From: a virus
Taxonomy: Duplodnaviria > Caudoviricetes
Direction: 5' to 3' (one strand)
IMG/VR virus record: IMGVR_UViG_3300036832_000092
Coordinates: 1-52,898 of that record
DNA length: 52,898 nucleotides
The notes beneath the pieces are model-generated. The model made no database searches, was not told the origin of the DNA, and saw only the letters and a list, made by a program, of their open reading frames with translations. The position numbers were made by a program, and so were the translations under genes. Shown here piece by piece: positions 13,734 to 21,214 of the stretch; the first letter of the stretch is position 1; each line of letters opens with the position of its first letter.

Positions 13734-14006
13734 ATGACCTACAACTCAACTGCTGATATGCATGACGACTTTGACTTGCATCGCAGGCTTGTCGCTTGCG
13801 CGAGTGAACAAGGCAAGGGCAATCCGGATGACGGTGCTGCGCAGCCCGACAATTGGGTTGCCTTGCACAAGTGGCCAATTGTGAACAGCCCTGGTTGGTC
13901 TGCCAAATATGACTCTGCTCGCGCGTCTGGCAATACATCGCCTGGTAGGGATGCGGCAGTCATCACTGACGACGACATCTTGGCGACGATTCAGCCGATG
14001 GCATAG
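13734..14006 (+). CDS. Hypothetical protein (end of tail module)
   Basis: AGGGAG RBS; 90 aa; ends VITDDDILA. Confidence 0.7.
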   Translation: MTYNSTADMHDDFDLHRRLVACASEQGKGNPDDGAAQPDNWVALHKWPIVNSPGWSAKYDSARASGNTSPGRDAAVITDDDILATIQPMA

Positions 14007-15111
14007 TCATCATCATGTAGAATTGAAGATCGCAAAACATGCCTGGAGTCCATGGGGATTCCGGGCATTTTTGCTGCGCATTCTCTACCATTTCGGTATG
14101 AATCCGCCATTTACAGTTTCTTGGAGCCCATCCCCATCGTGCCTGGTGGTCAGAGTTCTGCTGCGAGCCTGTACAAGAGCCACTGTCGCGACACCTTTAC
14201 GGCGCATGTTCTCGCTGGCCTTCCGGCGCCTCACCCCGCAGATTCATGGCCCTTCATGTAATTCATGACAGCTTCACCAGCTTGGGCGAGAGGGTCAATC
14301 GACGTCTCCATGTAACTCATGGAACAGCCTTTCTCTACTAAATCGGTATGACATATCTGAATCCGCCAAATCAGTTCTAAGCAGAAGTCGATCTTGCCCA
14401 TGGTATTAGGTCTGATGCCTCACGCTCTGCTGCGAGGCTGACGTTCGCATGCCGTAGCTGCGATTCTCGTCAGCGCCCCACCCGGCTGGCAGGCCTCGAA
14501 AGTAAGCATCACGTAAGCATTAGTTATGAAAGGCATAAGAAAACCAGCTTTCACACCAGGGTTTACAGTAGATTCAGTGTTGCGGACGTAGCGCAACTGA
14601 AGGTTACGGCCCGCTCGATCCCCCAATAATTTCATGCACGCAAGCGCAACGAGCCGTTCGAGCCCCATGAATTTCATGGGGCGCGTTACGGACGGACTGT
14701 TGCGTCGCATACTTTCTCCCGAAACGGGTAAGCGAAGGATGTTCATGCGAAATATGGGACTAGCTAGGCGCTCTGCGAAGAGTAGCTCCGAAATTCCATG
14801 CGGGACATGCGCGCTACGGGTGGGCACAAGTCGATCTTGTGCAGCAGACCGAACCACCTCCTGACGTAAGGATTCATGAGAAATATGCGAGGAACTCAAA
14901 AGGTACCATGCGGGCCATGATCGATCTTTGTCAATAAAATAGTGTGATTCTTCTCATTTCCATGAGGTCGATGAGAGTTGCCTCAGGTTGGGGTGTTGTG
15001 AGTCCGACTAATAGGCGGATACCCCAATCTCTGGTTGCCTTATCGACAAGGCAGAAAATGCGAACTAGTAAATTGCTAGTCGCAAGCAAAATTACCATGG
15101 AGGTAATGAGA
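14007..15111. promoter_or_regulatory. ~1.1 kb non-coding control region between late and early genes
   Basis: No convincing ORF; diverged direct repeats, many hairpins, TAAAAT -10-like box at 14935-14940. Confidence 0.6.
14967..15058 (+). ncRNA. Pseudoknotted intergenic element, copy 0
   Basis: GTCGAT (14967-72) is complementary to loop ATCGAC of hairpin TTGCCTT/AAGGCAG; inserted stem GTTGGGGTGTT/GATACCCCAAT. Confidence 0.5.
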
Positions 15112-15549
15112 ATGTTCGAAATCACTGGCAAGCAGGTCATGGCGTCCGGCGCTGGTCACAACTACCACCTGTTCCGTAGCTGCTACGGTAACAAGTTGGG
15201 GCAGGGTTACCATGTCTCCGTTGGTAATGACATCTACCGTACGCACCGCGTATCGGTCGAAACTGCCATCGAGCAGGGTTACTTCGCATGCCGCGTATGC
15301 TATAAGCGTGCGGGGCTGACGGTCCCGGCTGCGGCCGACCGTGTGAAGGTCCGTGACGCTAAGCGTGCGGAACGTCTTGCGCGTAAGGCTGAGATTGAGG
15401 CTGCCAAGGCTGAGAACGTTGCCGCTCGTGCGGCGACTGACGCTGCGGTCGATGTGATCAAGGCTGCGAACGTTGAGGTTGACGTCAACGCTCTGATTGC
15501 GTCCCTGATCGACATGCTAAAGCTGGAGACTCTGGCCACTACGGTCTGA
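15112..15549 (+). CDS. Early protein with Ada-type Zn-binding-like motif
   Basis: GGAGG RBS at 15099; YHxxxxC...GYFACRVC followed by an Ala-rich helix. Confidence 0.7.
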   Translation: MFEITGKQVMASGAGHNYHLFRSCYGNKLGQGYHVSVGNDIYRTHRVSVETAIEQGYFACRVCYKRAGLTVPAAADRVKVRDAKRAERLARKAEIEAAKAENVAARAATDAAVDVIKAANVEVDVNALIASLIDMLKLETLATTV

Positions 15550-15604
15550 GTGCGTTGCGTTTGGCCATGCTAGTCATGGTCATTCGTTGCCTACTCAGGC
15601 AGAA
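15547..15604 (+). ncRNA. Pseudoknotted intergenic element, copy 1
   Basis: TGAGTG pairs with loop TACTCA of TTGCC/GGCAG; inserted CATG-CTAGT-CATG hairpin. Confidence 0.6.
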
Positions 15605-15630
15605 CTACCCTACTAGGAATGAGGAATCAA

Positions 15631-15840
15631 ATGGCAAACGTGCTCAGAGGTGTCGTAAAGGCATATCAAGACTGGGACTATCTCGACGTTGACGAGGAAG
15701 TCTCAGGTGAGCAAGTTGACGTTTCGATCTTCGCAGTCGTTGGGGAATTTGCGGGCAAGGAATTTGCCCATGATATCCCTGAGGGTTCCAAGATCGAATG
15801 GGACGCCGACTGGGAGCCTACCTACCAACTCAAGCAGTAA
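15631..15840 (+). CDS. Hypothetical early protein
   Basis: GAGGA RBS before ATG 15631; 69 aa acidic. Confidence 0.7.
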   Translation: MANVLRGVVKAYQDWDYLDVDEEVSGEQVDVSIFAVVGEFAGKEFAHDIPEGSKIEWDADWEPTYQLKQ

Positions 15841-15843
15841 ATC

Positions 15844-15903
15844 CGGTTGCGTTGCGTAATCTACATGCCTAGCATGTAGGTTGCGTTGCCCACCCGGGCA
15901 GAA
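15844..15903 (+). ncRNA. Pseudoknotted intergenic element, copy 2
   Basis: CGGTTG pairs 5/6 with loop CACCCG of TTGCC/GGCAG; 14-bp inserted hairpin. Confidence 0.6.
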
Positions 15904-15926
15904 TTACCGACTGAAGGAGAATCAGA

Positions 15927-16154
15927 ATGGCCATGGAGCCCAAGCCCAAGCCTGAGAAGTCGTTCAGCATTGACGGCATTGAAGTCAAGGTTGGCATGAT
16001 GTTCTGGGACTATGACTTGCGCCGTTGCCAGGTGCTAGCGGAGGAGCCATACAACCCATACGATGGTGTTGTTTGGTTCCGTACCACCACTGGTATGTTT
16101 GATGGTCAGCGCCTCTGGCGTCGCCACCCATCTACTGGTAAGCCCTGCTACTGA
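15927..16154 (+). CDS. Hypothetical early protein
   Basis: AAGGAG RBS; 75 aa. Confidence 0.75.
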   Translation: MAMEPKPKPEKSFSIDGIEVKVGMMFWDYDLRRCQVLAEEPYNPYDGVVWFRTTTGMFDGQRLWRRHPSTGKPCY

Positions 16155-16213
16155 ACACTCAACAGAATGTACATGCTAGTCATGTACATTCGATTGTCCG
16201 TTCAGGACAGAAA
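16152..16213 (+). ncRNA. Pseudoknotted intergenic element, copy 3
   Basis: TGAAC pairs with loop GTTCA of TTGTCC/GGACAG; perfect 11-bp hairpin GAATGTACATG-CTAGT-CATGTACATTC. Confidence 0.55.
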
Positions 16214-16328
16214 GGATTCTCAAGCCTGATAGGCCTGAGGATTCGGTCTTGCCCTGCCAGTCCGGCAGGAGTAAGGTCAGCGCTAGCAAGGAGATTCCTT
16301 GCTAGGCATGCGATCCAGGAGGAACGCA

Positions 16329-16910
16329 ATGACTGAAGTGAATGAGGAGATCAAGGCAACCGCAGAGTCGGATGCCCCAGTCCCCGCAACGTCCGACGGT
16401 GCGGAAGGGGCACCTGCCGACAGCACTCCCGTGGTCAAGACGCCCAAGTCTTGGGCCGACCGTATCAAGACGAGTCTTGAGAACGGACGGCAGAACGCGC
16501 GGTACATCAAGTTCAAGGAGTTCATCGCCGATGAATCCAATGGTGAAACGGTCGCTGACCTGGACACCATCGCTCTGGTGATGACCTTGATCAACGGATG
16601 GCGTGCGACTCCTGAGTACAAGGAGTGGGACGCAGAATACCGTGCGACGACTGGTGGAGGCACGACGCCCAAGGACGTCAAGCCCAAGACCAAGGAGGAA
16701 GCGCAGGCACTGGTCAAGAAGGCAGAAGAGAGTGCTGCCCGACAGGCCAAGGCCAAGGCCACTGCTGAGGCTCGCGCAGAGCGTGCGCGGCTGATGCTGG
16801 CTGAGCTGGAGCAGGAGGCTGCTGGCGAGGGTGTCGAGGCTGATGAATCCGATGAGGACATCACCGACGACACTGGCGACGCTGACGATTCCACGGATGA
16901 AGCGTTCTAG
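16329..16910 (+). CDS. Hypothetical acidic/helical early protein
   Basis: AGGAGG RBS before ATG 16329; high-GC3 codon usage. Confidence 0.8.
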   Translation: MTEVNEEIKATAESDAPVPATSDGAEGAPADSTPVVKTPKSWADRIKTSLENGRQNARYIKFKEFIADESNGETVADLDTIALVMTLINGWRATPEYKEWDAEYRATTGGGTTPKDVKPKTKEEAQALVKKAEESAARQAKAKATAEARAERARLMLAELEQEAAGEGVEADESDEDITDDTGDADDSTDEAF

Positions 16911-16931
16911 CAGACGCTAATTCCCATGGTG

Positions 16932-16968
16932 CGGATGGGGCCTGGTCGAACTGACCTGGCCCTATCCG
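16932..16968 (+). terminator. Strong hairpin after gene (terminator or stabiliser)
   Basis: CGGATGGGGCC-TGGTC..GACCT-GGCCCTATCCG; no U-tract. Confidence 0.4.
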
Positions 16969-16990
16969 GGCATGTACCTTGATCTCAACA

Positions 16991-17054
16991 GGTCGAAACT
17001 CCATGCACGGCATGTGTATGGAGTCCGCATGTAAGGCATGCGCTGATGATGACC
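16991..17054 (+). ncRNA. Hammerhead ribozyme, type II; predicted cleavage after C17025 (GUC)
   Basis: GGTC-GAAA-[CTCCATGCAC/GTGTATGGAG]-TC-[CGCATG/CATGCG]-CTGATGA-T-GACC; loop I TAAGG can pair with upstream CCTTG (16977-81). Confidence 0.88.
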
Positions 17055-17094
17055 AAATGTCTCAGTCAGAACATCGAACCAGGGAGAATCCCCA

Positions 17095-17670
17095 ATGGAA
17101 AGTGAGAAACGTCCCATCACGGACAGTCAGATCAAGTATCTGACTGACCTTGCTGGCTCACGGCAGATGGAAGATGCCGACAGGCTATTCCTACTGGAGC
17201 ACATGAAAGACTTCGACACCAAGTTGGCGTCAAAGTGGATTGATGCGCTCAAGATGCTGCCGCCAAGGCCCAAGCAGTTGCCGAAGCCCAAGTGGTCCGT
17301 GCCTGACGTGATCCCAGATGGTCGTTATGCGATCCTGAATCCCAGTAAGGCATGGGTATTCTTTCGCATTCTGACCAAGGAAGATCGTCAGAACGGACTG
17401 GAGTACAGGATTGTCCAAAAGATCCTTGGGGCGCCTGGTGATTTCAGGTACGTCAGAGTCACCGCAGAGGAGTGGAACCTTGCGATCACAAAGATCGCAG
17501 TGGATCCAGGCCTGTTCTCGCAGATGTTCGGCATCCAAGTCGGTGTCTGCGGGGTGTGTGGCAGTCCGCTGACGGACCCCACTTCAATCAAGTTGGGTAT
17601 CGGCCCAATTTGCGCTGCGAAGTATGGGTTATTCGGCGACGATGAGGCTGACGAGGCTGACGATGAGTGA
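17095..17670 (+). CDS. DUF6011-like Zn-ribbon protein
   Basis: CGVCGSPLTDPTSIKLGIGPICA motif. Confidence 0.8.
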   Translation: MESEKRPITDSQIKYLTDLAGSRQMEDADRLFLLEHMKDFDTKLASKWIDALKMLPPRPKQLPKPKWSVPDVIPDGRYAILNPSKAWVFFRILTKEDRQNGLEYRIVQKILGAPGDFRYVRVTAEEWNLAITKIAVDPGLFSQMFGIQVGVCGVCGSPLTDPTSIKLGIGPICAAKYGLFGDDEADEADDE

Positions 17671-17920
17671 GCCGCAGAAGTTCCAGTCAATCGAACTGGA
17701 CTGCCCACCTGGCATGGTGCGCCCAAATGATCTGTTCGACGCTGTCGTCAAGGATCTGGGCATCGAGCCCATATCACGTGATGTCCCATGTATGTTTGGA
17801 CATTCTGAGTGGTTCTTCAGAATCGACAGACCTACATGGGAGGCTAAGTATCAGCCAACAATCAAGGAACGTGTGGAGCGCCTGTACAATTCGGGAGTGA
17901 TCAGATACGGCAGCTGGTAA
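17663..17920 (+). CDS. Hypothetical protein
   Basis: GAGG before ATG 17663; overlaps previous stop. Confidence 0.7.
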   Translation: MSEPQKFQSIELDCPPGMVRPNDLFDAVVKDLGIEPISRDVPCMFGHSEWFFRIDRPTWEAKYQPTIKERVERLYNSGVIRYGSW

Positions 17921-17979
17921 CCATGTTTGGCCGCAGACGATAGTGCTGCGGTCATTCATGGCTATCAAGGTGATAGTCA

Positions 17980-18264
17980 ATGGAAATGAGGAAGGGTCAA
18001 ATGGGACAAGACTCGCTCAGAGTTGAGGGTTTGTCGGTGGGACGACTGTATCGCATTATCTACAGGAATCCTTTGGACAAACTACCACGGCAGATGATTG
18101 CTAAGTACATGGGTCAGGAGGATAGCGCAGACACGCTGTTCTTCAATCTGCGCCCAATTGCCGGCACCCAAGCGATCAAGATCGAATGGATACAACAGCT
18201 ATGGGAGACAGACCAAATCGTCGCTGCACCAACGATCTATCGTGGCGAAACGCGAGTGTTCTGA
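17980..18264 (+). CDS. Hypothetical protein
   Basis: AAGGTG RBS; 94 aa. Confidence 0.65.
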   Translation: MEMRKGQMGQDSLRVEGLSVGRLYRIIYRNPLDKLPRQMIAKYMGQEDSADTLFFNLRPIAGTQAIKIEWIQQLWETDQIVAAPTIYRGETRVF

Positions 18265-18354
18265 GCAAGGATGTTTGGTCATGTTGTGATACATGGCCAT
18301 TCACCCCTGTTCAGGGGAAGTTCCCATCAACCCATGGAGAATTGAGGAGAGTCA

Positions 18355-20295
18355 ATGGAGGAACAGCAGGAACAGAATCACCAGGCTATACCTGGTGGCT
18401 CAATCGCTGCGGCTATAGCGGCCAAGACTGCCGCTGAGAAGCCCATAGATCCCAAGTGTTACTTGGACATCGAGAATGGGTTCATCAGCGTCAAGTCAAG
18501 GTACTCCGCTATGGCCAACGTCGTGTATCGACAGCAAGGTGGTCGTTGGAAGGATGACGACAACGGCAAAAGATGGCTGCTACCTCTGACGATGGAGACA
18601 TGCCAGGCGCTTCGCAAGCATTGGAAGCAAGACTTGGTGATCTCCAAATCCCTCAACCAATGGGCGAGAGGTGAGAAGGTCAGACAAGAGGCTGTTGCAG
18701 CACTTCACAAGGCAGAAAGTGCAACGCTGAATGAAGTCTCGGTCACGCACCCCGCATTAGCGAAAGCCATGGATAGCAGAACTTACCAACAGGTTGGTGC
18801 TGCGTTCATTGCTCATCAAAGGTCTGTGCTCATTGCTGATGAGCCTGGCTTGGGCAAAACGCTTGAAGCTATTGCGGGAATTGTCGAGGCTGGGTGTTGG
18901 CGAGGATTGATCCTTGTCGCTGCGCCGCTCACCAGTCTACGGACTGTGTGGGAACATGAGCTGTCGAAGTGGGCTCCTGAAGCCCATGTAGTGATTGGTG
19001 TTCCCAAGAAGCACGATAATGCTGCTGCGCGCATTGACTTGCAGAACAAGTTCATTGAGCACTACGCAGAGAATCCTCTACAACCGCATATCTTGGTTGT
19101 GAATCCTGAGATGCTTCAGGCTCGCAAGCAAGACAACTTTGTCCTGTTCACAGCAGTTGAGTGGCAGGCAATTGTGGTCGATGAAAGCCATAAATACTTG
19201 GCTGGCATTGAGTCTGCACGCAAGCATACGCAGACTGGTAAAGGATTGCTTGATCTCAAGCTAGCAGAAGATGGGGTCAAGATCGCATTGTCGGGAACAC
19301 CCATGCGCGGCAGGCCGTGGCACTTGTGGGGTACGTTGCACTGGTTGCGTCCCAAGCAGTACACTGCGGCATGGAGATGGTATGAACGATACTTCCTCAT
19401 GACCAAGGGATGGGGCGGCAGTCAAACGATTGGTGCGCTAAACCCATGGCGACAAGAGCAATTCTACAAGTCGCTTGATGACATCATGCTTCGCAGAACA
19501 AAAGCTGAGGTCGTCAAGGAACTACCTGCCAAGCAGCACATCGACATCATGGTCGATATGACCAGTTCCCAAGAGGCCATGTACAAGTCTATGGCAGCCG
19601 ATGCTGCCGCAGAGTTGCTAGGCATGGACTTTGGGGATGATGATGCTGGGAGTATCTCGGCTGTTGGTGTCCTTGCCATCATGACACGCCTCAAGCAGTT
19701 TGCGGACTGCGCATGGAGAGGCGCGAACATTGAGGGCATGGTACCTACAGCAAAGATGCATCCTTTGCATTCTGGCAAGACTGCGGTCATTGAGGATATG
19801 CTCATCGAACGTGGAATTGCTGGACCTATGGATGAGCGGGATGGCAATCACAAGATCGTTATTGCCAGCCAGTTCACCAAGGTCATCGACTCGCTGGAGG
19901 AATACCTTGATGGCATTGGAGTCGATTGCCTCAAGATTACCGGTGGCGTGAATGAGCAACAACGTGTATCGGCTACCCAACGGTTCCAGTCTGAAGGTGG
20001 ACCGCGTGTAATGCTCATGAATACCAAGGCGGGTGGCGTATCGATCACGCTCGATGCGTTCTGCGATGAGCTCATCATTATCGATGAGACATGGACGCCA
20101 GACGATCAGGAGCAGTTGGAAGATCGTATCCACCGGGTGAGTCGTATTCACCAAGTGACGATCTACAGGCTGCTGACCAAGGAGTCCATCGACGAATACA
20201 TTGCGGACATCATTGCTCGCAAGGATTCAATCCAGAAGCAGATTCTGGATGGTCGTCGTGGAGTCGAGAACATAGCTGCTGCGATCGTGCGGTAG
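18355..20295 (+). CDS. SNF2-family (SF2) DNA helicase
   Basis: ADEPGLGKT, VDESH, LSGTP, QLEDRIHR motifs. Confidence 0.93.
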   Translation: MEEQQEQNHQAIPGGSIAAAIAAKTAAEKPIDPKCYLDIENGFISVKSRYSAMANVVYRQQGGRWKDDDNGKRWLLPLTMETCQALRKHWKQDLVISKSLNQWARGEKVRQEAVAALHKAESATLNEVSVTHPALAKAMDSRTYQQVGAAFIAHQRSVLIADEPGLGKTLEAIAGIVEAGCWRGLILVAAPLTSLRTVWEHELSKWAPEAHVVIGVPKKHDNAAARIDLQNKFIEHYAENPLQPHILVVNPEMLQARKQDNFVLFTAVEWQAIVVDESHKYLAGIESARKHTQTGKGLLDLKLAEDGVKIALSGTPMRGRPWHLWGTLHWLRPKQYTAAWRWYERYFLMTKGWGGSQTIGALNPWRQEQFYKSLDDIMLRRTKAEVVKELPAKQHIDIMVDMTSSQEAMYKSMAADAAAELLGMDFGDDDAGSISAVGVLAIMTRLKQFADCAWRGANIEGMVPTAKMHPLHSGKTAVIEDMLIERGIAGPMDERDGNHKIVIASQFTKVIDSLEEYLDGIGVDCLKITGGVNEQQRVSATQRFQSEGGPRVMLMNTKAGGVSITLDAFCDELIIIDETWTPDDQEQLEDRIHRVSRIHQVTIYRLLTKESIDEYIADIIARKDSIQKQILDGRRGVENIAAAIVR

Positions 20296-20434
20296 AGCTC
20301 ACATTGACCTCATGGAAATGGGAAGAATCAAAAAGCCAACAGTTACATGTGTCGGACAGCGTCCGATTCGTCCTGGAAAGTCGATCTTGTCTTGGAAGTA
20401 AAATCAGAGTAAGATCGACTCATGGAAATTCCAC

Positions 20435-21214
20435 ATGAAAGGAATGATGATGGACGAACGAACATGGGAGCAAAACGCTCTTGAATTCGCTGAACTGGAC
20501 AAGGGTGAGGGCTGGCCATTTGCCATCCTTGTCGCTTGCTCAGTTCAACCAGGCAAAGTTGGTGGTCGTCGTTCAAATCTCGATCGAGATTTGAAGGTTG
20601 ACGCAACAACATTTGCAGCTAGGGCAGAAACCAGCAATGATCGCATCCTCAGGTATTACAGGGCATGGCAGAAAGCTGCATTGAATGGCTATGTACCCAA
20701 TGCTGATACGCTGAAGCCAAGTGATGTCGATAACGTCAAGTTGCCGACACTTGCTTGGTCAAAGAGTGATGCTGCGCCTGGTGAGCCTTTTGCCTACTCA
20801 GCATCCGCAGAAGCAGCGGCCACAAAGCCAACTACTGCCAAGCAGGTGCAGAAGGCACTTGATTCATTACCACCTGTTCAACGTGATCAGGTTGTGAATC
20901 ATGCGCTTGGGCAAAGGGCTGCTGAAAGTCGCAAGGCCAATGCAATTATTGCTGAAGAGCAAGAATTGCGGATGATGGCTGAAGATCGCAAGATTCTTAC
21001 CAATGAGGATCTTGGTATCACAGGCAGTAGTTTCCCAGAGTTCGAGGCCATGGCTGTTTACAGTCATAACATGCTGTTGATCAGGAAGCGTTCCAAGGAA
21101 CTGATCAAGATCCTTAGCAACATTGCCGTTGTGAAGGATGAGAAAGCAGTTGCGTTACTTGGTGATCTTGTTGATGCGATTGCGCCTCATTTGGCGGTGA
21201 AGGACGATGCGTGA
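20435..21214 (+). CDS. Hypothetical protein, putative HTH DNA-binding
   Basis: KVDATTFAARAETSNDRILRYYRAW resembles an HTH segment seen in actinobacterial/phage proteins; true start may be 20444-20450. Confidence 0.55.
   Translation: MKGMMMDERTWEQNALEFAELDKGEGWPFAILVACSVQPGKVGGRRSNLDRDLKVDATTFAARAETSNDRILRYYRAWQKAALNGYVPNADTLKPSDVDNVKLPTLAWSKSDAAPGEPFAYSASAEAAATKPTTAKQVQKALDSLPPVQRDQVVNHALGQRAAESRKANAIIAEEQELRMMAEDRKILTNEDLGITGSSFPEFEAMAVYSHNMLLIRKRSKELIKILSNIAVVKDEKAVALLGDLVDAIAPHLAVKDDA

What the first reader, a model, noticed from the sequence alone, without database searches (positions are those of the whole stretch)
16975..17054. Type II hammerhead ribozyme with an extra U in the core, between two early genes
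Seen: full core with GAAA at 16995-98, GUC site at 17023-25, CUGAUGA at 17043-49, a 10-bp stem III, 6-bp stem I and 4-bp stem II with a U inserted after A9. Loop I UAAGG can pair with upstream CCUUG, the kind of tertiary pseudoknot established for type II hammerheads. Cleavage would fall about 70 nt upstream of the DUF6011-like gene and leave a 5'-OH mRNA starting with a hairpin. The biological roles of phage hammerheads are largely unknown.
Basis: partly seen in the sequence, partly recalled or inferred. Interest (0 to 1): 0.8.

Follow-up and report, generated by a model that had tools for sequence, protein, structure and literature searches.

The report
Type II hammerhead ribozyme between phage genes
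This is a genuine self-cutting hammerhead RNA of a kind known in phages since 2011, sitting between two genes of an uncultured soil phage, and its extra U is a common natural variant rather than an oddity.

Summary

It is not chance. A strict descriptor gave 0 hits in 400 shuffles. A covariance model built only from 95 hammerheads of other viral contigs scores it 68.1 bits, E about 3e-17; the next hit in the window scores 13.7 bits.

It belongs to an abundant phage subclass of type II hammerheads. The subclass has a 17-nt stem I hairpin with a U-first pentaloop and a 4-bp stem II flanked by A on both sides. Its members sit between co-directional genes. Related phages carry 6-11 copies per 5.5 kb, including one in front of the same DUF6011 gene.

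Rfam 15 misses the whole subclass.

The extra U is common, with 56 exact-pattern stretches in IMG/VR against at least 120 without it. It is gained and lost between close relatives.

The proposed upstream pseudoknot is not supported. The conserved residues fit the classic loop 1 / loop 2 contact instead.

Cleavage is untested. The scan has noted many similar phage hammerheads before. This is a new member of a known kind.

The parts
16990..16990 (+). Conserved A directly 5' of stem II. It takes the place of the 3' A of an opened loop 2.
   Evidence: A in 95 of 96 subclass members. The role is inferred from the RNnA loop 2 motif in PMC2632901.
16991..16994 (+). Stem II 3' strand, GGUC (11.4-11.1).
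   Evidence: Pairs with 17051-54. The helix covaries at 3 of 4 pairs in alignment A2.
16995..16998 (+). Core G12 A13 A14 and A15.1.
   Evidence: Invariant in 96 of 96 aligned members.
16999..17023 (+). Stem III hairpin: 10 pairs with loop GGCAU.
   Evidence: The five pairs nearest the core covary across the family.
17024..17025 (+). U16.1 and C17. The predicted cut is after 17025.
   Evidence: Position 17 is C in 93 of 96 and A in 3 of 96 members. Cleavage itself has not been tested.
17026..17042 (+). Stem I hairpin: 6 pairs plus pentaloop UAAGG.
   Evidence: All 6 pairs covary in A2. Loop position 1 is U in 96 of 96, position 3 is A in 79 of 96, and position 5 is G in 82 of 96. The window fits all three.
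17043..17049 (+). Core C3 U4 G5 A6 U7 G8 A9.
17050..17050 (+). Extra U between A9 and G10.1.
   Evidence: Present in 67 of 96 collected subclass members, always as U. That sample is biased by the search patterns. It is absent from a related contig in run X1.
17051..17054 (+). Stem II 5' strand, GACC (10.1-10.4).
17055..17055 (+). Conserved purine directly 3' of stem II. It lies opposite A16990.
   Evidence: A in 86 and G in 4 of 96 members.
16936..16964 (+). Strong hairpin between the upstream stop codon and the ribozyme. Its function is unknown.
   Evidence: -19.8 kcal/mol, z -4.87, 0 of 200 shuffles fold as well. It is not followed by a U run.
16299..16910 (+). Upstream gene, 203 aa with an acidic tail, no family match.
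17095..17670 (+). Downstream gene, 191 aa, with a DUF6011 domain at its C-terminus.
   Evidence: PF19474, E 8.8e-14. phrog_636. 20 homologues besides itself.

Best explanation
The element at 16990-17055 (+) is a cis-acting type II hammerhead ribozyme. It belongs to a phage subclass that lies in the spacers between co-directional genes.

Inferred mechanism. When the long + strand transcript of the early region is made, stems III and I fold first. The 4-bp stem II then closes the three-way junction. The core cuts after C17025 by internal transesterification.

The upstream RNA, carrying the 203-aa gene, then ends in the stem III hairpin with a 2',3'-cyclic phosphate. The downstream RNA, carrying the DUF6011 gene and what follows, starts with a 5'-OH on the stem I hairpin, 69 nt before its ATG. 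The short stem II lets the two products separate.

The extra U17050 is a tolerated bulge between A9 and G10.1. The stem I / stem II docking needed at cellular Mg2+ is most likely the classic hammerhead contact between the first U of loop 1 (U17032) and the A at the 3' side of what would be loop 2 (A16990). Loop 2 is opened here by the type II permutation. The docking is probably not a pseudoknot.

Shown: sequence, fold, family membership, covariation and genomic context. Inferred: cleavage, the nature of the ends, the tertiary contact and the effect on the messages.
For: Anatomy and core. The minimum-energy fold of the 64-nt core is the hammerhead.

Chance is excluded. The strict descriptor hit 0 of 400 shuffles and the loose one hit 4 of 400.

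Model R1 was built from 95 hammerheads of other viral contigs, with the window left out. It scores 16988-17057 at 68.1 bits, E 2.8e-17. The next hit scores 13.7 bits.

Family size. 116 of the 153 regex matches had at least 4 pairs in both hairpins. The subclass-specific pattern matched 56 stretches. It also matched 21 stretches in bacterial assemblies, 20 of which score at least 54 bits with R1.

Covariation on 96 sequences: 14 of 16 pairs show changes on both sides, 485 such cells, against 32-127 when partners are slid by 1-3 columns.

Conserved positions that no search pattern required all fit the window: U at loop position 1 in 96/96, A at -1 in 95/96, A at +1 in 86/96.

Same slot in relatives. 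Hammerheads lie directly before the DUF6011 homologue in L119, L120, L121/L122, L171, L173 and L174. The L121 copy has the same UAAGG loop and three compensatory stem I pairs. The L171 copy also has the extra U.

Context. Subclass members start a median of 3 nt after a same-strand stop codon, 96 of 119 within 60 nt. They end a median of 36 nt before the next ORF. There is no sigma-70-like promoter in 14000-21000, and the only + strand terminator-like site, at 14039-14068, lies upstream of the early genes.

Extra residue. A residue between A9 and G10.1 occurs in the CChMVd (+) hammerhead, and replacing it with U raised the trans-cleavage rate 3-4-fold (passages of PMC1636495 and PMC3705267). 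Rfam-accepted phage type II hammerheads show the same inserted 'ug'.

Clustered phage hammerheads cleave in vitro and in E. coli, and processing into single-gene messages was proposed (PMC3088659, section 6).

Tertiary contact. A conserved A.U Hoogsteen pair joins a U next to residue 1.6 with the last A of loop 2 (PMC2553840). Loop motifs UNmYN and RNnA are described in PMC2632901, section 22.
Against: No cleavage data exist for this RNA or, as far as I could find, for this subclass.

Rfam's Hammerhead_II model gives no hit here even at E <= 10.

With 40 nt of native flank on each side, the hammerhead fold is 6.8 kcal/mol less stable than the minimum-energy fold. Only 7 of 95 members, the window's own among them, are that badly placed; the median is 1.2. 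Two local hairpins compete with it. One at 16979-96 covers GGUCGA and one at 17043-69 covers CUGAU. They are weak, at -5.1 and -6.6 kcal/mol, and 11 and 16 of 200 shuffles fold as well.

The window keeps only one hammerhead, while relatives have 6-11 in 5.5 kb. The nearest metagenome relative, L170, has none before its DUF6011 gene.

Loop I position 4 is G here and is a pyrimidine in only 48 of 96 members. The fit to the published UNmYN loop 1 motif is therefore partial.

The 100% pairing is partly circular, because the sequences were picked by a descriptor that demands pairs. 66 of the 95 training sequences of R1 were found with patterns taken from the window's own core and stem II.
Confidence: 0.8

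Rival explanations
1. It is a true hammerhead homologue, but in this phage it is a weak, masked or decaying copy that cuts little or only under some conditions. It would be the last survivor of an array that other RNA elements have replaced.
For: There is one copy in the window against 6-11 per 5.5 kb in L119-L122. The other spacers of the same operon hold different structured motifs. The hammerhead fold is 6.8 kcal/mol above the minimum-energy fold with native flanks, among the worst 7 of 95. Stem II pair probability is 0.17 in an 86-nt context and 0.0 in the whole spacer. L170 lacks a hammerhead in this slot.
Against: Every core base, both perfect hairpins (10 and 6 pairs) and all conserved non-core positions are intact. 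At 68.1 bits it scores as high as the best copies in relatives, which reach 67.6. The competing hairpins are no stronger than those of shuffled sequence. Folding programs do not count the core and tertiary contacts. A related contig keeps stem I and CUGAUGA unchanged.
Confidence: 0.12
2. It is an active hammerhead that docks stems I and II through the first reader's pseudoknot, loop I UAAGG with CCUUG at 16977-81.
For: The five pairs exist, four Watson-Crick and one G.U. Pseudoknots do stabilise many type II hammerheads (PMC3088659).
Against: The published pseudoknot uses the 3' tail directly after stem II, not an upstream segment. Across 95 members, complementarity of loop I to its own upstream 30 nt equals that of swapped loops, 3.96 against 3.89. 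A 5-pair run arises in 26 of 95 members. CCUUG overlaps the 16979-96 hairpin.
Confidence: 0.06
3. It is a chance look-alike, or two ordinary hairpins such as protein sites or stability elements, that happen to be flanked by core-like words.
For: No Rfam hit. CTGATGA occurs 18 times on the + strand of the window.
Against: 0 of 400 shuffles pass the strict descriptor. R1 gives E 2.8e-17. Hundreds of covarying homologues occupy the same kind of slot.
Confidence: 0.02

Closest known systems
Type II hammerhead ribozymes of bacteria and prophages (Perreault et al. 2011, PMC3088659; Rfam RF02276 Hammerhead_II)
   Same: Same core and same permutation, with stems I and III capped and stem II open. Same habitat: spacers that flank single genes or short gene blocks of phages, often in clusters. 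An inserted residue after CUGAUGA also occurs in Rfam-accepted members.
   Different: There is no loop I / 3'-tail pseudoknot. Stem I is a fixed 17-nt hairpin with a U-first pentaloop. Stem II is 4 bp closed by an A/R opposition rather than about 2 bp. The Rfam model does not reach its cut-off, or even E <= 10, for this copy. It also found none of 53 subclass copies in 13 other loci.
Viroid and satellite hammerheads with the loop 1 / loop 2 contact (sTRSV, CChMVd; PMC2553840, PMC2632901)
   Same: A 6-bp stem I followed by a U, and a 4-bp stem II followed by a purine and preceded by an A. These are the residues of the conserved U.A contact. An extra residue between A9 and G10.1 is seen in CChMVd (+).
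   Different: Those are type III, with stem III open, and serve rolling-circle RNA replication. Here loop 2 is opened instead, the RNA is a phage message, and loop 1 is a pentaloop whose fourth base is G rather than a pyrimidine.
Hammerhead arrays in the related DUF6011-carrying phages (L119-L122, L171-L177)
   Same: Same subclass, same strand, and the same slot in front of the homologous gene. The L121 copy has the same UAAGG loop.
   Different: They carry 6-11 copies per 5.5 kb, and most lack the extra U: 0 of 22 descriptor hits in L119-L121 and 3 of 19 hits in L170-L177 have it. The window has one copy, with the U.

Membership tests
Hammerhead ribozyme (any type) | Conserved core: C3 U4 G5 A6 N7 G8 A9, G12 A13 A14, A15.1-U16.1, and a non-G residue at position 17. 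| tested here: met
   All are present at 17043-49, 16995-98 and 17024-25. One extra U, 17050, sits between A9 and G10.1. This position is known to tolerate an extra residue.
Hammerhead ribozyme (any type) | Three helices around the core, supported by covariation, with a G10.1-C11.1 pair. | tested here: met
   Stems of 4, 10 (+1) and 6 pairs. 14 of 16 tested pairs covary over 96 sequences. G10.1-C11.1 is invariant. The sequences were descriptor-selected, so percent paired is circular.
Hammerhead ribozyme (any type) | Site-specific self-cleavage after position 17, giving a 2',3'-cyclic phosphate and a 5'-OH. | not testable with these tools
   No RNA data are available; only DNA contigs of soil metagenomes were listed.
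Type II hammerhead (Perreault 2011) | Permutation with stems I and III closed by loops and stem II open. | tested here: met
   The order is GGUC-GAAA-[stem III]-UC-[stem I]-CUGAUGA-U-GACC.
Type II hammerhead (Perreault 2011) | [quoted passage not shown] This is found in the majority of members, not all. | tested here: not met
   The longest run between loop I and the 30 nt downstream is 3 in the window. Over the family it equals the swapped-loop control, 3.60 against 3.59.
Rfam RF02276 Hammerhead_II | Score at or above the gathering cut-off of 37 bits. | tested here: not met
   No hit at gathering, none at E <= 10 on 231 nt, and none at this place in the single-family search.
Small-loop type II subclass (my model R1) | 17-nt stem I hairpin with a U-first pentaloop, a 4-bp stem II flanked by A on both sides, and a position in an intergenic spacer on the sense strand. 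| tested here: met
   68.1 bits, E 2.8e-17, with a model that excludes the window. The conserved positions fit. The context fits.

The most novel reading that the evidence does not exclude
The window's ribozyme represents an abundant but uncatalogued subclass of type II hammerheads. The subclass would be the loop-2-opened permutation of the viroid-type hammerhead. It would dock stem I on stem II through the classic U(loop 1).A(loop 2) contact and not through the type II pseudoknot. Its extra U after A9 would be a frequently gained and lost indel that tunes cleavage rate gene by gene. In this phage, flanking hairpins would additionally make the single remaining copy a conditional cutter.
Probability: 0.3. 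Interest if true: 0.5.

Novelty: new member of a known kind. Interest (0 to 1): 0.3.

Why it matters
In itself this is one more phage hammerhead, which adds little. Three by-products are useful.

(1) Rfam 15 misses a whole, very common phage subclass of type II hammerheads, so counts of ribozymes in viromes are underestimates. The 95-sequence alignment and model made here could seed a new family.

(2) The extra U after A9, studied so far as a viroid curiosity, is a routine polymorphism in phages. It is present or absent in copies within one genome and between close relatives. That offers a natural series for asking whether it tunes rate.

(3) The conserved U and A residues suggest that the viroid-type loop-loop contact survives when loop 2 is cut open. 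This is simple to test.

The open question of what phage hammerheads are for is not answered here.

Tried and rejected
Rfam scans: whole window at gathering, 231 nt at E <= 10 and RF02276 alone. None hit the locus. I read this as a limit of the models, because Rfam also missed the relatives.

DNA similarity to deposited phages: no match.

Close protein relatives of either flanking gene in IMG/VR, using single-protein queries: none. An alignment query then worked.

Upstream or downstream pseudoknot for loop I: rejected, because observed complementarity equals the swapped-loop control.

Mutual information between loop I and flank positions: signals were dominated by relatedness and suggested no clear base pair.

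Release of the ribosome-binding site by cleavage: in the 184-nt fold, an 8-pair helix between 16922-30 and 17078-85 appeared. Its probability is only 0.03-0.10 in wider contexts. The GGG of the Shine-Dalgarno site is equally paired before and after the cut. Rejected.

Expression data: no RNA holder listed, so cleavage ends could not be looked for. Laying DNA contigs gave the variant without the U. The 194 letters that replace 16829-17025 in that relative could not be read.

Literature on this subclass: searches found only Perreault 2011 and the cyPhyRNA-seq paper for phage type II hammerheads. I found no description of the small-loop subclass. However, supplements are closed, and Dataset S1 of PMC3088659 (more than 10,000 hammerheads) may well contain it. 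De la Pena and Flores 2001 (JBC) is not in the library. I saw only what PMC1636495 and PMC3705267 say about it. That two natural hammerheads carry an extra U there is my recollection of its abstract.

Full report
**Observation.** The window is an IMG/VR virus record of 52,898 bases, estimated 76% complete. DNA runs that hold it are labelled soil metagenome. At the stated place the + strand reads, in order:
- GGUC, 16991-94
- GAAA, 16995-98
- a 10-pair hairpin, 16999-17008 / 17014-23, with loop GGCAU
- U C, 17024-25
- a 6-pair hairpin, 17026-31 / 17037-42, with loop UAAGG
- CUGAUGA, 17043-49
- U, 17050
- GACC, 17051-54

This is the type II order of a hammerhead. Every core residue is present, the G10.1-C11.1 pair is present, and one extra U lies between A9 and G10.1. 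The 64-nt core folds into exactly this three-way junction as its minimum-energy structure, at -28.2 kcal/mol with stem II pair probability 0.97-0.99. The element lies in a 184-nt spacer between a 203-aa ORF (16299-16910, no family) and a 191-aa ORF (17095-17670, DUF6011, E 8.8e-14). The predicted cut is 69 nt before the ATG.

**Chance.** A loose type II descriptor of my own found one hit in the real window. It found 5 hits in 4 of 400 dinucleotide shuffles. With stems of at least 4, 6 and 6 pairs it found none in 400.

**Rfam.** No family reaches its cut-off anywhere in the window. No hammerhead family appears even at E <= 10 on 231 nt around the site. RF02276 searched alone gives only a 9.7-bit hit elsewhere.

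**Relatives by pattern.** I had estimated roughly ten by chance; that figure is my own arithmetic and not a tool result. Of 153 regex matches in the fetched loci, 116 had at least 4 pairs in both hairpins, with different sequences.

Two classes were visible.
- One has a large loop I that pairs with the 3' tail. Rfam recognises it, with 14 hits in L061, L079 and L082. Its alignments show the same inserted 'ug' after CUGAUGA.
- The other has a 17-nt stem I hairpin like the window's. Rfam found none of these in L010, L016, L019, L025, L032, L038 or L085 (12 rows of alignment A2).

A pattern specific for the second class with the extra U gave 56 stretches, a complete list. In bacterial assemblies the extra-U pattern gave 21 stretches. 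Their labels range from Acidobacteriota, Alphaproteobacteria, Burkholderia and Streptomyces to Gastranaerophilales. Twenty of the 21 score at least 54 bits with my model.

**Relatives by gene.** The DUF6011 protein has 20 homologues besides itself. With their alignment I fetched 9 viral and 8 metagenome loci.
- The descriptor found 10, 6, 6 and 6 type II hammerheads in L119, L120, L121 and L122. All are on the gene strand, all are of the small-loop class, and none has the extra U.
- Model R1 found 42 hits in 16 loci. Nineteen of them are in the metagenome loci L170-L177, which had no part in building the model. There were none in the distant L123-L127.
- A hammerhead lies directly before the DUF6011 homologue in L119, L120, L121/L122, L171, L173 and L174, but not in L170.
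- The L121 copy has the same UAAGG loop and differs from the window at three stem I pairs, all compensated.
- The L171 copy has the extra U, as does a second copy in that contig. Two further copies there lack it.
- Other contigs also mix both forms: L085, L138, L140, L150 and L162.

**Family features.** Over 169 loci the descriptor gave 302 hits, 254 of them unique. The small-loop subclass, after requiring at least 5, 5 and 3 pairs, has 96 unique members including the window. Sixty-seven have an extra base, always U, and 29 have none. That ratio is biased by my patterns.

These positions were not required by any pattern or descriptor, yet they are conserved:
- loop I position 1 is U in 96/96, position 3 is A in 79/96, and position 5 is G in 82/96;
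- the base before stem II is A in 95/96;
- the base after stem II is A in 86/96 or G in 4/96;
- stem II is exactly 4 pairs in all 96.

The window fits each one. On the 96-row alignment, 14 of 16 tested pairs show changes on both sides (485 cells), against 32-127 cells when partners are slid by 1-3 columns. No shuffle out of 500 reaches the observed values. The 100% pairing is partly circular, because the rows were chosen by a pairing descriptor.

**Membership test without the window.** Model R1 was built from the 95 other sequences and run over the window with filters off. It scores 16988-17057 at 68.1 bits, E 2.8e-17. The next hit is a 13.7-bit fragment. E-values from this short calibration are rough. 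In addition, 66 of the 95 training rows were found with patterns derived from the window. The 29 rows without the U were not found with those patterns.

Rfam finds nothing in 13 further loci (86,152 bases). Those loci hold 36 rows of A2 and 17 R1 hits of this subclass.

**Extra U.** In run X1, which may be the source sample, a second and lower-depth contig aligns from 17026 onward with 32 differences. It has no difference listed in stem I or CUGAUGA, and one base is left out at 17050, so this relative has the canonical core. The U is therefore gained or lost over short evolutionary distances.

The position is known to tolerate an extra residue. CChMVd (+) has an extra A between A9 and G10.1, and changing it to U raised the trans-cleavage rate 3-4-fold (passages in PMC1636495 and PMC3705267, which cite De la Pena and Flores 2001).

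**Tertiary contact.** Perreault et al. describe the type II pseudoknot as joining loop I to the 3' tail immediately downstream of stem II (PMC3088659, section 6). Across 95 members, the longest complementary run between loop I and 30 nt upstream averages 3.96, against 3.89 with loops swapped among members. Downstream the figures are 3.60 and 3.59. A 5-pair run upstream occurs in 26 of 95. Neither pseudoknot is supported.

The conserved residues instead match the classic contact of natural hammerheads. Chi et al. describe a conserved Hoogsteen pair between a U next to residue 1.6 of stem I and the last A of loop II (PMC2553840). Dufour et al. describe a loop 1 motif beginning with U and a loop 2 motif R...A (PMC2632901, abstract and section 22).

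Here stem I has 6 pairs followed by an invariant U. The 4-pair stem II is followed by a purine and preceded by an A. My inference is that the subclass is this hammerhead with loop 2 cut open. The fit is partial: the fourth loop base is a pyrimidine in only 48 of 96 members and is G in the window.

**Context and likely role.** Subclass members begin a median of 3 nt after a same-strand stop codon, 96 of 119 within 60 nt. They end a median of 36 nt before the next mechanical ORF of at least 60 aa. The window's copy is 80 nt after the stop and 40 nt before the ATG.

The region 14000-21000 has no sigma-70-like promoter. Its only + strand terminator-like site is at 14039-68. The genes read on the + strand, which fits one long transcript.

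Perreault et al. showed cleavage of clustered prophage hammerheads in about 2-kb transcripts in vitro, and for one set in E. coli. They proposed processing into single-gene or operon-length messages. Three type II hammerheads of Desulfovibrio vulgaris were shown active in vivo (PMC8782182, abstract and passages).

By analogy, the cut would leave the upstream RNA ending in the stem III hairpin and the downstream RNA beginning with the stem I hairpin. That these ends protect the messages is my inference.

**Against efficient cutting here.** With native flanks the hammerhead fold competes with two local hairpins, at 16979-96 and 17043-69.
- Stem II pair probability falls to 0.17 in 86 nt and to 0.0 in the whole spacer.
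- With 40-nt flanks the hammerhead fold is 6.8 kcal/mol above the minimum-energy fold, among the worst 7 of 95; the median is 1.2.
- The hairpins are weak, at -5.1 and -6.6 kcal/mol, and 11 and 16 of 200 shuffles fold as well.
- In the related contig, the 3' arm of the second hairpin carries changes. I take the hairpins to be incidental, but only an assay with native flanks can tell.

An idea that cleavage frees the ribosome-binding site was tested and dropped.

**Comparison and verdict.** This works like, and is a member of, the hammerhead class in its type II permutation. It shares the habitat described in 2011. It fails two features of the catalogued type II family, the 3'-tail pseudoknot and the Rfam score, because it belongs to a distinct and very common small-loop subclass. 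The extra U is a known kind of core variation and is common in phages.

The scan itself has noted many phage type II hammerheads on other DNA, including one report that a subclass misses the database cut-off. I therefore rate it a new member of a known kind, of modest interest. The missing Rfam coverage, the U polymorphism and the inferred opened-loop contact are the points worth keeping.

Noticed in passing
window 14967-16213 (spacers at about 15549-15618, 15840-15926 and 16152-16298): The spacers that hold hammerheads in related phages hold a different repeated motif here. It consists of a CAUG-CUAG-CAUG type hairpin followed by GUUGCC-loop-GGCAGAA. The loop is complementary to a segment just after the preceding stop codon (UGAGU/ACUCA in one copy, UGAAC/GUUCA in another). 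Neither Rfam nor R1 hits it. It may be a functional stand-in for the hammerhead.
   Followed up: partly
window 14945-14977 and 20298-20330: A long-range inverted repeat, 33 nt and 91% complementary, with arms 5,320 nt apart. It brackets the early gene block that contains the hammerhead.
   Followed up: partly
window 16936-16964: A strong hairpin (-19.8 kcal/mol, z -4.87) lies between the upstream stop codon and the hammerhead. Its inner part reads GGUC-GAACU-GACC, which are the stem II strands and GAA of a hammerhead without stems III and I. It could be a collapsed second copy or a coincidence.
   Followed up: partly
L010 639-3809; L119 103-4924; L250 9152-12752: Very dense arrays. L010 has six hammerheads in 3.2 kb, L119 has ten or eleven in 5.5 kb, and L250 has eight pattern matches in 3.6 kb. 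Each L010 copy is followed within 10-25 nt by a GGAG and an ATG.
   Followed up: partly
L009 2077-2136 and similar (L011, L080, L100, L106): A third group of extra-U type II hammerheads has a 9-pair stem I and a UGGCU loop. It was also not reported by Rfam at gathering in L009.
   Followed up: no
window 16829-17025 versus run X1 record 2: A co-occurring relative is alignable up to 16828 and again from exactly 17026, the predicted cut site. 194 unlike letters lie in between. Stem III and the upstream spacer therefore diverge much faster than stem I and the core.
   Followed up: no
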